This document shows, one piece after another, positions 23,879 to 24,156 of a DNA stretch of 31,860 nt. A program made the translations under genes and the position numbers. Every line of letters starts with the position of its first letter. Positions within the stretch are counted from its first letter, which is position 1. The DNA is taken from IMG/VR virus record IMGVR_UViG_2778261226_000007. The stretch is one strand, 5' to 3'. This DNA comes from a virus (Duplodnaviria; Heunggongvirae; Uroviricota; Caudoviricetes). The notes below the pieces were generated by a model. That model ran no database searches. It had not been told where the DNA came from and saw nothing but the letters and a program-made list of their open reading frames with translations.

Positions 23879-23935
23879 GATGGCAGCCTCCGTATGCAAT
23901 GGATAACTTCCACCACCGGAAACGCCAATTTCGCT

Positions 23936-24014
23936 GGTGGTGAACTGAGCAGGGTTGGCGTAACCGGCGCATACGGAAACCGGCGCACCTTTCGGTGCCC
24001 CCACCCAGCCCACC
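23936..24014 (-). ncRNA. c4-like antisense RNA core, module A (79 nt)
   Basis: Closing stem GGTGG/CCACC. GNRA hairpin GCACC-GAAA-GGTGC. A CCGG/CCGG hairpin carries b' (CCGTATGC, 23969-23976) in its loop. a' is ACGCCAA (23955-23961). Targets: a2 TTGGCGT 23922-23928; b2 GCATACGGA 23890-23897 overlapping SD GGAGG. Upstream copies: a1 24090-24096, b1 24073-24080. Confidence 0.7.
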
Positions 24015-24044
24015 ATAATTTGGGTATAGCTGAGTTGTAGCAAC

Positions 24045-24064
24045 AAAAAAGACGCTAACGCGCC
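24045..24064 (-). terminator. Weak hairpin plus T6 between b1 and the c4-like core, module A
   Basis: Minus strand: GGCGC, loop GTTA, GCGTC (one G-U pair), followed by T6. Confidence 0.4.
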
Positions 24065-24127
24065 AATTGTCGCCGTATGCAATTCCAGGACGCCAATCCC
24101 GGCACCCGCTTTATAAGGTGCTGGAAC

Positions 24128-24156
24128 AGTGTAACGTCCCGAAATTGCAGAATCAA
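24128..24156 (-). promoter_or_regulatory. Sigma70 promoter of module A
   Basis: Minus strand: TTGATT, 17 nt, TACACT. Confidence 0.55.

What the first reader, a model, noticed from the sequence alone, without database searches (positions are those of the whole stretch)
23879..24156. Module A: a c4/immI-type antisense RNA switch hidden in the apparent N-terminal extension of a Rha-like ORF
On the minus strand, the 278 nt between the Lar stop and the Rha-like ATG (23878) form an ordered set of elements. First comes a promoter, TTGATT-17-TACACT. Next is a 5' hairpin, GCACC...GGTGC. Then box a1 TTGGCGT (24090-24096) and box b1 GCATACGG (24073-24080). Then a hairpin plus T6. A 79-nt core follows, closed by GGTGG/CCACC. 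The core contains a GAAA-capped hairpin and a CCGG/CCGG hairpin whose loop is CCGTATGC (b', the exact complement of b). The core also has a single-stranded ACGCCAA (a', the exact complement of a). After the core come a2 TTGGCGT (23922-23928) and b2 GCATACGGA (23890-23897). b2 overlaps the GGAGG Shine-Dalgarno. This order (a1 b1, antisense core with a' b', a2 b2 over the RBS of an antirepressor-type gene) is the architecture established for the P1/P7 immI c4 RNA, which is about 77 nt and blocks the RBS of icd/ant. The region stays open in the Rha frame, so the track shows a 226-aa ORF; I read that as coincidental.
Basis: partly seen in the sequence, partly recalled or inferred. Interest (0 to 1): 0.8.

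Follow-up and report, generated by a model that had tools for sequence, protein, structure and literature searches.

The report
Known-type antisense RNA gate on antirepressor gene
This stretch of a lambda-like E. coli prophage is one of three copies of a well-known phage RNA switch (the P1 c4 / P4 CI / Salmonella IsrK type) that blocks the ribosome-binding site of an antirepressor-type gene, and genome annotation mislabels it as an "Ash" protein domain.

Summary
Rfam independently calls the core a C4 antisense RNA (23933-24020, minus strand, 80.7 bits against a cut-off of 45). It calls the upstream leader, which carries a1, b1 and the terminator, an isrK RNA (24045-24121, 61.2 bits against 50). 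Two more such modules lie in the window, each with its own box sequences. In 142 related phage loci the a'/b' boxes of the core co-vary with the flanking a1/b1 and a2/b2 boxes. b2 overlaps a Shine-Dalgarno-like motif, and the gene downstream is almost always of antirepressor type (Rha, ORF6N, Bro-N). Box spacing matches the annotated P1 immI region to within about 10 nt. So this is a new member of a known kind: the "IsrK-C4 immunity system", already noted in lambdoid prophages in 2013. The upstream 106 codons show no coding signature, and the Pfam "Phage_ASH" family that matches them also matches the translated P4 CI RNA gene. The open frame is not pure chance, however. In this 81-nt subclass it is about 6- to 10-fold depleted of stop codons, which suggests selection for ribosome passage, not for a protein. 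Interest is modest.

The parts
24128..24156 (-). Module A promoter: -35 TTGATT (24156-24151), 17-nt spacer, -10 TACACT (24133-24128). The predicted start is G24121.
   Evidence: Read directly. It matches 8 of 12 consensus positions and is not listed by the scan. The same hexamers occur at the same position in 48 of 65 related 81-nt-class loci, and another promoter-like pair in 8 more. The isrK model hit begins 7 nt after the -10.
24045..24121 (-). IsrK-like leader RNA. It has a 5' hairpin (24121-24102), a second hairpin (24101-24086) with a1 UUGGCGU (24096-24090) in and beside its loop, single-stranded b1 GCAUACGG (24080-24073), and an intrinsic terminator (stem 24064-24051 plus U6).
   Evidence: Rfam RF01394 isrK, 61.2 bits against a cut-off of 50. 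Terminator scan. Helices are 75-96% paired with compensatory changes. All 142 related loci have a run of at least 5 T here.
23933..24020 (-). C4-type antisense RNA. The predicted mature form is 24014-23936 (79 nt), by homology with the annotated 77-nt P1 c4. It has a 17-bp closing stem, a GAAA hairpin, a second hairpin with b' CCGUAUGC (23976-23969) in its loop, and single-stranded a' ACGCCAA (23961-23955).
   Evidence: Rfam RF01695, 80.7 bits against 45, full length. It folds to the three-way shape at -45 kcal/mol. The closing stem is 99.8% paired, with 10 of 17 pairs compensatory.
23910..23943 (-). Conserved alternative hairpin. The 3' strand of the C4 closing stem (UCACCACC, 23943-23936) can pair with the downstream GGUGGUGG (23917-23910). 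This places a2 UUGGCGU (23928-23922) in the loop.
Evidence: 96.5% of cells paired across 132 sequences, with compensatory changes in P1 and P4.
23876..23897 (-). Target site: b2 GCAUACGGA (23897-23889) overlapping SD GGAGG (23891-23887), an 8-nt spacer, then AUG (23878-23876).
   Evidence: In the fold of the unprocessed leader, 23897-23885 pairs with 23969-23981 (13 bp covering the SD). In 122 related loci an SD-like motif lies between b2 and the ATG in 118, and starts inside b2 in 91.
23516..23878 (-). Regulated gene: a 120-aa Rha-like protein. Its stop (TGA 23518-23516) overlaps an ATG (23519) that opens the equivalent upstream frame of module B.
   Evidence: Pfam Phage_pRha 30.7 bits against 29.9. 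NCBIfam TIGR02681 scores 38.3 for the 226-aa ORF, below its 45.95 cut-off. Homologues show a coding signature.
23214..23503 (-). Sister module B, with different boxes: a GUGGAAA, b UCAAYAUAG. It gates a 183-aa Rha protein (22671-23222).
   Evidence: Rfam C4 82.4 bits at 23280-23367 and isrK 57.7 bits at 23392-23468. Pfam Rha 104.8 bits.
17900..18178 (-). Sister module C, directly after the Q antiterminator gene. It has the same a box as module A and a different b box (GAAAAAGG). It gates an ORF6N protein (17421-17909).
   Evidence: Rfam C4 74 bits, isrK 79.4 bits and c4-a1b1 52.2 bits. Promoter TTGACC-18-TATATT and terminator. Q and ORF6N by Pfam.

Best explanation
Module A is an IsrK-C4 type RNA immunity module, of the same kind as P1/P7 immI c4, P4 seqA-CI-seqC and Gifsy-1 isrK-STnc1160-anrP. 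It gates an antirepressor-type (Rha-like) gene of a lambdoid prophage.

Proposed mechanism:
1. A modest promoter starts transcription at about 24121.
2. Most transcripts stop at the intrinsic terminator. This gives a ~77-nt leader RNA that displays a1 in a hairpin loop and b1 single-stranded.
3. Read-through transcripts contain the C4 fold, which is cut out as a stable ~79-nt RNA. In P1 the 5' cut is made by RNase P.
4. The b' loop and the single-stranded a' stretch of C4 pair with b2 and a2 on the mRNA. The b'/b2 duplex covers the Shine-Dalgarno sequence, so the Rha-like gene is not translated. Untranslated mRNA is probably also terminated early.
5. The short leader RNA carries the same boxes as the target. 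It can therefore bind C4 and act as a decoy, which turns expression on, as shown for IsrK in Gifsy-1.

The three modules in this phage use different box sequences, so each RNA should address mainly its own gene.

Shown here: family membership, structure, co-variation of the boxes, and the overlap of b2 with the SD. Inferred from homologues: processing, repression, and the decoy action.
For: Family and layout:
- Rfam C4 80.7 bits and isrK 61.2 bits, both above their gathering scores.
- The same two models, or c4-a1b1 in place of isrK, hit the P1 immI and P4 immunity regions.
- Box spacing matches the P1 annotation:
  - a1 to b1: 16 nt here, 14 in P1.
  - b1 to C4: about 58 nt here, 67 in P1.
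  - C4 end to a2: 8 nt here, 4 in P1.
  - a2 to b2: 31 nt here, 29 in P1.
  - b2 to ATG: 11-12 nt here, 11 in P1.

Co-variation:
- 142 non-identical loci carry 50 different b' and 27 different a' sequences. An exact complement of a' of at least 7 nt lies in the locus's own upstream flank in 93% and in its own downstream flank in 99%. The cross-locus controls give 1.5% and 1.8%. For b' the figures are 58% and 82%, against 11% and 5.6%.
- On the alignment, a1:a' is 98.2% paired with 6 of 7 pairs compensatory, b1:b' is 80-92% paired, and a':a2 is 87-94% paired.
- Intramolecular helices are 94% paired against 36-46% when the partner is slid, and 31 of 44 pairs are compensatory.

Target and context:
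- b2 ends 7-16 nt before an ATG, and an SD-like motif is present in 118 of 122 loci.
- Among 106 distinct downstream proteins, Rha matches 41, ORF6N 32, Bro-N 20, P22 antirepressor C-terminal domain 11 and AntA 2.
- In each row of the 3x3 duplex energy table the cognate pair is the most stable.

Experiments on homologues:
- In Gifsy-1, IsrK G28/G31 pair with C162/C159, which I map to a1:a'. IsrK supplied in trans activates anrP translation about 140-fold. A processed species of ~80 nt (STnc1160) exists (PMC4825925).
- IsrK and STnc1160 are highly expressed in lysogens (PMC7067206).
- C4 is needed for full repression of ant in P1 (PMC8198154).
Against: - Nothing here shows that this copy is transcribed, processed or active. 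The promoter matches only 8 of 12 consensus positions.
- The Gifsy-1 study explains the same architecture differently. It proposes a cis structural switch plus translation of 'orf45' (the C4 region) coupled to the downstream gene. In that study, co-expressing the C4-like RNA did not relieve IsrK toxicity (PMC4825925).
- Energy discrimination between modules is small for module C (-21.8 against -19.8 kcal/mol). Modules A and C share the a box, so cross-talk is possible.
- The Rha assignment of the 120-aa product is borderline: Pfam 30.7 against 29.9, and NCBIfam (scored on the 226-aa ORF) below its cut-off.
- Antirepressor activity of this protein is untested.
Confidence: 0.85

Rival explanations
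1. The 226-aa ORF is real: an 'Ash' protein domain fused to a Rha domain, as PGAP and Pfam annotate it. On this view the RNA-like features are secondary.
For: - The frame is open from 24196 to 23516.
- Pfam PF10554 Phage_ASH scores 60.7 bits.
- RefSeq names the homologue 'ash family protein'.
- In the 81-nt class the frame lacks stops in 51 of 60 loci.
- SPA-tagged 'orf45' was detected in Gifsy-1 (PMC4825925).
Against: - There is no codon-position signature upstream of the ATG (0.61/0.66/0.64), against a clear one in the gene (0.65/0.50/1.11).
- Core lengths range from 75 to 86 nt and do not differ by multiples of 3. In 58 of 122 loci the frame from the core AUG stops before the gene.
- The predicted promoter and an intrinsic terminator lie inside the ORF.
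- PF10554 also matches the translation of the P4 CI RNA gene, where immunity is known to be RNA-based. It does not match P4 epsilon.
- In module C the Ash-like ORF is out of frame with the downstream gene.
Confidence: 0.05
2. Gifsy-1 model taken literally. The C4 region acts mainly in cis as a structured leader and upstream ORF. The long transcript folds into an inactive form in which a1 pairs with a'. The short leader RNA opens it in trans. Ribosomes then start at the AUG at 24016 and reach the Rha gene by coupling; here the two frames are fused. A free antisense C4 RNA plays little part.
For: - Mutational and compensatory data in Gifsy-1 (PMC4825925).
- a1:a' is the best-conserved pairing here, at 98.2%.
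- The AUG at 24016 is in frame with the gene in 87 of 122 loci and fused to it in 53.
- The unprocessed leader can fold so that b' covers b2 and the SD in cis.
Against: - The core AUG frame is interrupted before the gene in 58 of 122 loci, often inside the core at codons 14-17. uORF coupling therefore cannot be the general mechanism.
- That AUG straddles the position where P1 c4 is cut (AU|G). The effect of the A107C mutation in Gifsy-1 could therefore reflect processing.
- a2/b2 co-vary with a'/b' as strongly as a1/b1 do, as expected for an antisense target.
- Stable processed C4-like RNAs exist in P1, P4 and Gifsy-1.
Confidence: 0.2
3. P4-type control. The main output is transcription termination, not translation. 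C4 pairing with a1/b1 and a2/b2 on nascent RNA promotes termination (intrinsic and Rho-dependent). This also limits read-through from the early promoter into the replication genes.
For: - The P4 immunity region hits the same two Rfam models.
- P4 CI RNA is described as causing premature termination through seqA and seqC (PMC4825925 discussion; PMC3632133).
- Modules A and B sit between cro and the replication genes.
- Every locus has a terminator about 28 nt upstream of the core.
Against: - b2 is tied to the SD and start codon in nearly all loci, which argues for a translational primary event.
- In P1 and P4 the termination effect is understood as a consequence of blocked translation (my own knowledge of Biere et al. 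1992 and Forti et al. 1995, not read here).
- Nothing in the sequence identifies a Rho site.
Confidence: 0.3
4. The complementary boxes are chance matches in a GC-rich stretch.
For: 7-8-nt matches are individually common. TTGGCGT occurs 13 times in the window.
Against: - All three GCATACGG copies fall inside the module.
- Covariance-model hits have E-values of 1e-11 to 1e-14.
- Co-variation across 142 loci far exceeds the cross-locus controls.
Confidence: 0.01

Closest known systems
P1/P7 immI: c4 antisense RNA controlling icd-ant (Citron & Schuster 1990; annotated in NC_005856)
   Same: - Same Rfam family.
- Same order: promoter - a1 - b1 - T-rich hairpin - C4 - a2 - b2/SD - first gene.
- Spacings agree within about 10 nt.
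- 7-nt a boxes and 8-nt b boxes, with b2 overlapping a GAGG-type SD.
- An antirepressor lies downstream.
   Different: - P1 is a plasmid prophage with a single module, under a C1 operator.
- In P1 the first gene is icd (a 73-aa division inhibitor) coupled to ant. Here the first gene is a 120-aa Rha-like protein.
- This phage carries three modules, two of them in tandem inside the early operon.
- The P1 leader hits the c4-a1b1 model but not isrK at the gathering score.
- No repressor operator was identified at the module A promoter.
Gifsy-1 (Salmonella) isrK - orf45/STnc1160 - anrP (Hershko-Shalev et al. 2016, PMC4825925)
   Same: - Lambdoid prophage.
- The isrK model hits the leader.
- 'orf45' starts at the conserved AUGG of the C4 5' end (+107 there, +106 here).
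- The G28/G31 : C162/C159 pairing maps onto a1:a'.
- An antirepressor-type gene lies downstream.
- That paper notes a Shigella dysenteriae variant with orf45 fused to anrP (287 aa). The module B ORF (22671-23534) has the same length, 287 aa, and the same fused layout.
   Different: - The Gifsy-1 locus lies after antQ, like module C here. Modules A and B lie in the early operon after cro, ant and lar.
- Gifsy-1 orf45 ends in an AUGA overlap, which is seen in only 4 of 122 loci. In module A the frame is fused to the gene.
- The published model stresses activation by IsrK, not repression by a C4-like RNA.
Satellite phage P4 immunity: seqA - CI RNA (seqB) - seqC
   Same: - Rfam C4 (74.9 bits) and isrK (60.8 bits) hit P4 in the same order.
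- The RBS and start region GGAGGCTGCCATCATGGCTAC is identical in P4 and module A.
- The alternative helix that places a2 in a loop is kept by compensatory changes.
   Different: - In P4 the RNA is the primary immunity factor. It controls the replication operon through premature termination and does not gate an antirepressor.
- The spacer between leader and core is about 100 nt longer in P4.
'IsrK-C4 immunity system' as named by Barquist et al. 2013 (PMC3632133)
   Same: That paper already states that IsrK and C4 are structural homologues of P4 seqA and CI, that P1, P7 and N15 use similar systems, and that some lambdoid Salmonella prophages encode them.
   Different: It contains no analysis of E. 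coli lambdoid modules, tandem arrays, box diversity or the Ash mis-annotation.

Membership tests
Rfam RF01695 C4 antisense RNA (clan CL00128) | Covariance-model score at or above the curated gathering score, over the full length of the model | tested here: met
   80.7 bits against 45, model positions 1-87 of 87, at 23933-24020 minus strand. P1 c4 itself scores 68.8.
Rfam RF01695 C4 antisense RNA (clan CL00128) | Three-way fold (long closing stem, tetraloop hairpin, second hairpin) supported by compensatory changes | tested here: met
   The MFE fold gives this shape. The closing stem is 99.8% paired with 10 of 17 pairs compensatory. Hairpin 1 is 98.1% paired with 5 of 5 compensatory. Slid controls give 36-46%.
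P1/P7 immI-type switch | a' and b' in the RNA are complementary to a1/b1 upstream and a2/b2 downstream, and change together between phages | tested here: met
   Exact 7- and 8-nt complements in module A. In 142 loci the own-flank matches are 93/99% (a) and 58/82% (b), against controls of 1.5/1.8% and 11/5.6%.
P1/P7 immI-type switch | b2 overlaps the ribosome-binding site of the first downstream gene | tested here: met
   b2 spans 23897-23889 and SD GGAGG spans 23891-23887, with the AUG 8 nt further on. The same holds in 91-118 of 122 loci. P1 has the same layout.
P1/P7 immI-type switch | The downstream operon encodes an antirepressor | tested here: inconclusive
   The product has a Rha domain only just above the Pfam cut-off (30.7 against 29.9). 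The NCBIfam Rha model, scored on the 226-aa ORF, falls below its cut-off. Family-wide the downstream genes are Rha, ORF6N, Bro-N, AntA or P22_AR_C. Antirepressor activity of this protein is not known.
P1/P7 immI-type switch | The RNA is processed from the operon transcript to about 77 nt (5' end made by RNase P) and represses in trans | not testable with these tools
   The mature form 24014-23936 (79 nt) is predicted only by alignment to the annotated P1 c4 ends.
P1/P7 immI-type switch | The operon promoter is controlled by the phage's main repressor (Op51/Oc4 in P1) | tested here: inconclusive
   The cI-cro intergenic region has ATCAAG/CTTGAT-type repeats. I saw no clear copy at the module A promoter by eye and ran no systematic search.
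Rfam RF01394 isrK | Covariance-model score at or above gathering; two 5' hairpins plus an intrinsic terminator | tested here: met
   61.2 bits against 50 at 24045-24121. The terminator was found independently. Hfq binding cannot be tested.
Pfam PF10554 Phage_ASH ('Ash protein family') | HMM score above the gathering score | tested here: met
   60.7 bits against 26 for residues 22-113 of the 226-aa ORF.
Pfam PF10554 Phage_ASH ('Ash protein family') | The matched stretch evolves as protein-coding sequence | tested here: not met
   No codon periodicity. The frame is not conserved across the family. The same profile matches the translated P4 CI RNA gene.

The most novel reading that the evidence does not exclude
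In the early-operon (81-nt core) subclass to which modules A and B belong, the frame through promoter, leader, terminator and C4 is kept free of stop codons by selection, and it always has a start codon upstream of the module's own transcription start. No protein domain is being preserved.

The proposed purpose is ribosome passage. Ribosomes that arrive on transcripts from the phage early promoter can translate straight through. That would suppress the terminator hairpin, the C4 fold and Rho polarity, and would bypass the RNA gate during lytic growth. Transcripts from the module's own promoter lack that start codon and remain gated.

Tandem cassettes with reassorted, mutually different a and b boxes would then form several independently addressed RNA locks on antirepressor genes.
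Probability: 0.3. Interest if true: 0.55.

Novelty: new member of a known kind. Interest (0 to 1): 0.3.

Why it matters
The finding does not reveal a new mechanism. It does have three practical consequences.

1. Prophage induction in E. coli, including Shiga-toxin phages that carry near-identical modules, is probably gated by several small RNAs that current annotation does not show.
2. The 'Ash' domain (Pfam PF10554, RefSeq 'ash family protein') appears to be a translated RNA gene. It has been used in the literature as a protein marker: as 'Rha/Ash domain proteins' in Stx phages (PMC8951638) and as the profile for P4 epsilon (PMC8628076). Correcting this would change gene starts for many Rha-family genes.
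3. The large natural set of co-varying a/b box pairs (50 b' and 27 a' sequences in 142 loci) is a ready-made collection of apparently orthogonal RNA-RNA address pairs.

Tried and rejected
- **First DNA pattern.** The gap of 48-62 nt missed the window's own cores, whose gaps are 63-65 nt. I ran a second scan with 63-70 nt. About 30% of the raw pattern hits were chance matches and were removed with a closing-stem test. My first version of that test paired the wrong positions and passed only one sequence. It was fixed.
- **Promoter scan.** It does not list the promoters of modules A and B, which match 8 of 12 consensus positions. I relied on positional conservation instead.
- **Repressor operator.** I looked for an operator shared by the cI-cro region and the module promoter and found nothing convincing, so I make no claim. 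By eye there is no LexA-box-like CTGT-N8-ACAG at the promoter either.
- **Duplex energies between modules.** The cognate pair is best in every row, but margins are small for module C. I do not claim strict orthogonality.
- **Alignment-based counts for b':b2.** These are depressed by gap placement (68-77% paired). The alignment-free test is the better measure.
- **Protein searches not run.** I considered a large protein database search for 'Ash' homologues. I did not run it because the periodicity, frame and P4 tests already answer the coding question.
- **Gifsy-1 sequence.** I did not fetch it. The mapping of its numbering onto module A rests on the published positions.
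Full report
**1. The observation**

| Element | Coordinates |
|---|---|
| -35 TTGATT | 24156-24151 |
| spacer | 17 nt |
| -10 TACACT | 24133-24128 |
| 5' hairpin GCACC...GGTGC | 24121-24102 |
| a1 TTGGCGT | 24096-24090 |
| b1 GCATACGG | 24080-24073 |
| GC-rich hairpin, then T6 | stem 24064-24051 |
| b' CCGTATGC (in the loop of the second core hairpin) | 23976-23969 |
| a' ACGCCAA | 23961-23955 |
| a2 TTGGCGT | 23928-23922 |
| b2 GCATACGG(A) | 23897-23890(89) |
| SD GGAGG | 23891-23887 |
| ATG | 23878 |

- The core also contains a GAAA-capped hairpin.
- The terminator scan picks up the hairpin-plus-T6 on its own.
- GCATACGG occurs three times in the whole window on both strands (0.84 expected). 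All three copies lie in this module, in the required orientations.
- TTGGCGT alone is not rare, at 13 copies.
- The 252-nt leader is unusually stable: -113.4 kcal/mol, z = -5.0.

Minor corrections:
- 278 nt is the distance from the -35 hexamer to the ATG. From the Lar stop it is 314 nt.
- The 9-mer b2 ends at 23889.
- The hairpin loop is longer than b'.
- The promoter matches only 8 of 12 consensus positions and is not reported by the scan.

**2. What it is**

A scan of the window against Rfam at curated thresholds gave seven hits, all on the minus strand.

| Family | Module A | Module B | Module C |
|---|---|---|---|
| C4 antisense RNA (RF01695, cut-off 45) | 23933-24020, 80.7 bits | 23280-23367, 82.4 bits | 17960-18045, 74 bits |
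| isrK (RF01394, cut-off 50) | 24045-24121, 61.2 bits | 23392-23468, 57.7 bits | 18068-18142, 79.4 bits |
| c4-a1b1 (RF03163, cut-off 46.7) | - | - | 18103-18155, 52.2 bits |

Its '5' hairpin, a1, b1, hairpin plus T6' is an IsrK-type leader.

The same models hit the two classical systems:
- In P1, C4 scores 68.8 bits and c4-a1b1 51 bits.
- In P4, C4 scores 74.9 bits at 8420-8507 and isrK 60.8 bits at 8615-8692.

The P1 GenBank record annotates the operator, promoters, a1, b1, the 77-nt c4 RNA, a2, b2, icd and ant1. Measured on that annotation and the sequence, the spacings compare as follows.

| Interval | P1 | Module A |
|---|---|---|
| a1 to b1 | 14 nt | 16 nt |
| b1 to C4 | 67 nt | about 58 nt |
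| C4 end to a2 | 4 nt | 8 nt |
| a2 to b2 | 29 nt | 31 nt |
| b2 to ATG | 11 nt | 11-12 nt |

By alignment to the annotated P1 ends, the mature module A RNA would be 24014-23936.

**3. Context**

The window is a lambdoid prophage read on the minus strand:

- cI (25766-26455, plus strand)
- a cro-like gene (25333-25632)
- an ORF6N/KilAC antirepressor (24402-25256)
- Lar (24193-24402)
- module A and a 120-aa Rha-like gene (23516-23878)
- module B and a 183-aa Rha gene (22671-23222)
- replication genes (DnaC-like, DnaB)
- RusA
- Q (18183-18578)
- module C and an ORF6N protein (17421-17909)
- an AraC-type gene, then a holin

Module C occupies the same position as isrK in Gifsy-1, directly after the Q-type antiterminator (PMC4825925).

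The 1.3-kb region around modules A and B has matches in 1639 of 5426 complete E. coli genomes and in many Stx-converting phages.

**4. Evidence that the boxes are functional**

Two pattern scans of IMG/VR gave 174 cores that pass a closing-stem test. Of these, 96 are distinct, and nearly all fold to the three-way shape. The exact module A core occurs 8 times.

Alignment-free test. In 142 non-identical loci there are 50 different b' and 27 different a' sequences.

| Match of at least 7 nt | Own locus | Cross-locus control |
|---|---|---|
| a' complement, 150 nt upstream (a1) | 93% | 1.5% |
| a' complement, 90 nt downstream (a2) | 99% | 1.8% |
| b' complement, upstream (b1) | 58% | 11% |
| b' complement, downstream (b2) | 82% | 5.6% |

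Positions are fixed: a1 about 80 nt and b1 about 64 nt before the core, a2 about 7 nt and b2 about 38 nt after it.

Alignment-based test. The alignment holds 134 modules, including P1 and P4.
- The six intramolecular helices are 94% paired, against 83% in shuffles and 36-46% when partners are slid. 31 of 44 pairs show changes on both sides.
- a1:a' is 98.2% paired with 6 of 7 pairs compensatory. b1:b' is 80-92% paired.
- a':a2 is 87-94% paired. b':b2 is 68-77% paired, limited by alignment gaps.

Target and neighbours.
- b2 ends 7-16 nt before an ATG in nearly all loci. An SD-like motif lies between them in 118 of 122 and begins inside b2 in 91.
- Every locus has a T-run, mostly ending 28-29 nt before the core.
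- Among 106 distinct downstream proteins, Rha matches 41, ORF6N 32, Bro-N 20, P22 antirepressor C-terminal domain 11, Derepression 3 and AntA 2.

The three modules of the window are internally consistent but differ from one another.

| Module | a box | b box |
|---|---|---|
| A | UUGGCGU | GCAUACGG |
| B | GUGGAAA | UCAAYAUAG |
| C | UUGGCGU | GAAAAAGG |

Cognate duplexes are the most stable in each row of a 3x3 energy table, though only narrowly for module C.

**5. How it most likely works**

Shown by sequence analysis: family membership, fold, co-varying boxes, and the overlap of b2 with the SD.

Inferred from the homologues:
- The promoter is active in the lysogen. IsrK and the C4-like STnc1160 are highly expressed in Gifsy-1 lysogens under all conditions tested (PMC7067206).
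- Most transcripts end at the terminator and give the short leader RNA.
- Read-through transcripts are processed to the C4 RNA.
- C4 pairs through b' and a' with b2 and a2 and masks the SD. In the fold of the unprocessed leader, 23897-23885 pairs with 23969-23981, 13 bp covering GGAGG.
- The leader RNA carries the same boxes and competes for C4.

The last step fits the Gifsy-1 experiments. IsrK G28 and G31 pair with C162 and C159. With the start at 24121, G28 and G31 fall on the two G's of a1 that pair with the C's of a'. IsrK supplied in trans raises anrP translation about 140-fold (PMC4825925). In P1, C4 is needed for full repression of ant (PMC8198154).

Whether the primary output is translational block, early termination or both cannot be decided from sequence.

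**6.

The 3' strand of the C4 closing stem (UCACCACC, 23943-23936) is complementary to GGUGGUGG at 23917-23910. Pairing them puts a2 into a hairpin loop, just as a1 sits in the loop of the second leader hairpin. This helix is 96.5% paired across 132 sequences and is kept by compensatory changes in P1 and P4. It excludes the C4 closing stem. The unprocessed transcript therefore has two alternative folds around the 3' processing site. Its role is unknown.

**7. The 226-aa ORF**

RefSeq annotates the homologous ORF as 'ash family protein'. Pfam PF10554 Phage_ASH matches residues 22-113, which is the translation of the leader plus C4.

Evidence against a protein domain:
- In 39 distinct loci where the frame is fused, column variability by codon position is 0.61/0.66/0.64 upstream of the ATG. 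In the gene it is 0.65/0.50/1.11.
- Core lengths of 75-86 nt do not differ by multiples of three. The frame from the core AUG stops before the gene in 58 of 122 loci.
- The module's own promoter and terminator lie inside the ORF.
- PF10554 also matches the ORF once called the P4 'cI gene product', exactly over the CI RNA (59.7-60.1 bits). P4 epsilon belongs to a different family, PF25738.
- In module C the Ash-like ORF is out of frame with the gene.

Evidence that the open frame is nevertheless not chance, within the 81-nt subclass of modules A and B:
- The gene frame has no stop between the transcription start and the ATG in 51 of 60 loci (mean 0.35 stops).
- The other two frames are open in 1 and 11 of 60 loci (means 3.42 and 2.25 stops).
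- Only 3% of shuffles are open.
- Sequences in this subclass are as little as 58% identical.
- In the other length classes all three frames carry about 2.2-2.5 stops.
- All 48 fused loci that can be evaluated have an in-frame ATG upstream of the predicted transcription start. In at least 14 it overlaps the stop of the preceding ORF, and in a large group the frame runs a further 360 nt upstream. In this window the stop of the short Rha gene overlaps such an ATG of module B (ATGA at 23519-23516).

My reading is that the frame is kept open for ribosome passage on transcripts that come from upstream, and that no 'Ash' domain exists. This is an inference and I could not test it.

**8. Comparison with what is known, and novelty**

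The architecture has been established since 1990 for P1/P7, and also for P4. Barquist et al. (2013, PMC3632133) explicitly call it the 'IsrK-C4 immunity system'. They equate IsrK and C4 with P4 seqA and CI and note that lambdoid Salmonella prophages carry it. Hershko-Shalev et al. (2016) mention the homology to P4 seqA and the processed ~80-nt species.

The finding is therefore a correct recognition, from sequence alone, of a new member of a known kind. Parts of the literature have not absorbed the link:
- A 2025 review lists IsrK and c4 as unrelated sRNAs (PMC12197685).
- A study of Stx phages discusses 'Rha/Ash domain proteins' (PMC8951638).
- A P4-satellite survey used PF10554 as the profile for epsilon (PMC8628076).

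**9. Verdict**

The one exception is that the open frame is 'coincidental' only in the sense that it does not encode a conserved protein. Interest is 0.3. The most novel reading still open is selected ribosome passage through orthogonal tandem RNA gates, at a probability of about 0.3.

Noticed in passing
window 23879-24196 (-); also 23223-23534 (-), 17792-18178 (-); L242 (P4) 8329-8521 (-): Pfam PF10554 Phage_ASH and the RefSeq name 'ash family protein' match translations of the IsrK-C4 RNA module, including the P4 CI RNA gene. P4 epsilon is PF25738 instead. The family looks like a translated non-coding RNA. Published work has used it as a protein domain or marker (PMC8951638, PMC8628076).
   Followed up: yes
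window 23879-24175 (-) and 48-60 related loci: In the 81-nt-core subclass the frame in phase with the downstream gene is 6- to 10-fold depleted of stop codons. It is open in 51 of 60 loci, against 1 and 11 of 60 for the other frames and 3% of shuffles. It always has an ATG upstream of the module's own transcription start, yet shows no codon periodicity. One possible explanation is selection for ribosome passage from upstream transcripts.
   Followed up: partly
window 23943-23936 with 23917-23910 (-): A conserved alternative helix forms between the 3' strand of the C4 closing stem and a downstream GGUGGUGG, with a2 in its loop. It is 96.5% paired, compensatory in P1 and P4, and mutually exclusive with the C4 fold.
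   Followed up: partly
window modules A/B (654 nt apart); L152 9650-11212 (three modules 656 nt apart); L001, L204, L228: Cassettes of module plus short Rha gene occur in tandem arrays. In all five multi-module loci adjacent modules differ in both the a and the b box. The same b box (CCGUAUGC) is combined with three different a boxes in different phages, which suggests reassortment that preserves orthogonality. Only five cases were seen.
   Followed up: partly
window 24016-24014 (-); L243 23342-23344: The AUG that Hershko-Shalev et al. treat as the first start codon of 'orf45' straddles the position where the annotated mature P1 c4 RNA begins (AU|G). The effect of their A107C mutation could therefore reflect processing, not translation.
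   Followed up: no
window 23871-23891 (-) and L242 8361-8381 (-): The RBS and start region GGAGGCTGCCATCATGGCTAC is identical in module A and in phage P4 downstream of CI RNA, although the b boxes and the downstream genes differ.
   Followed up: no
window 24402-25256 (-): A fourth antirepressor-type gene (ORF6N plus KilAC/ANT domains) sits directly after the cro-like gene with no C4 module in front of it. The phage thus carries four antirepressor-type genes, three of them RNA-gated.
   Followed up: no
window 16454-17257 (-): An AraC-family regulator resembling YdeO/GadX (146 bits to the YdeO model, below its cut-off) lies between the module C gene and the holin. It is probably a cargo ('moron') gene.
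   Followed up: no
L204 (IMGVR_UViG_2778261085_000013, 14.7 kb): This IMG/VR contig carries modules A and B at the same offsets as the reverse complement of the window. Its module B locus was removed as an exact duplicate of the window's, while the module A loci differ slightly. It may be the same or a near-identical prophage.
   Followed up: no
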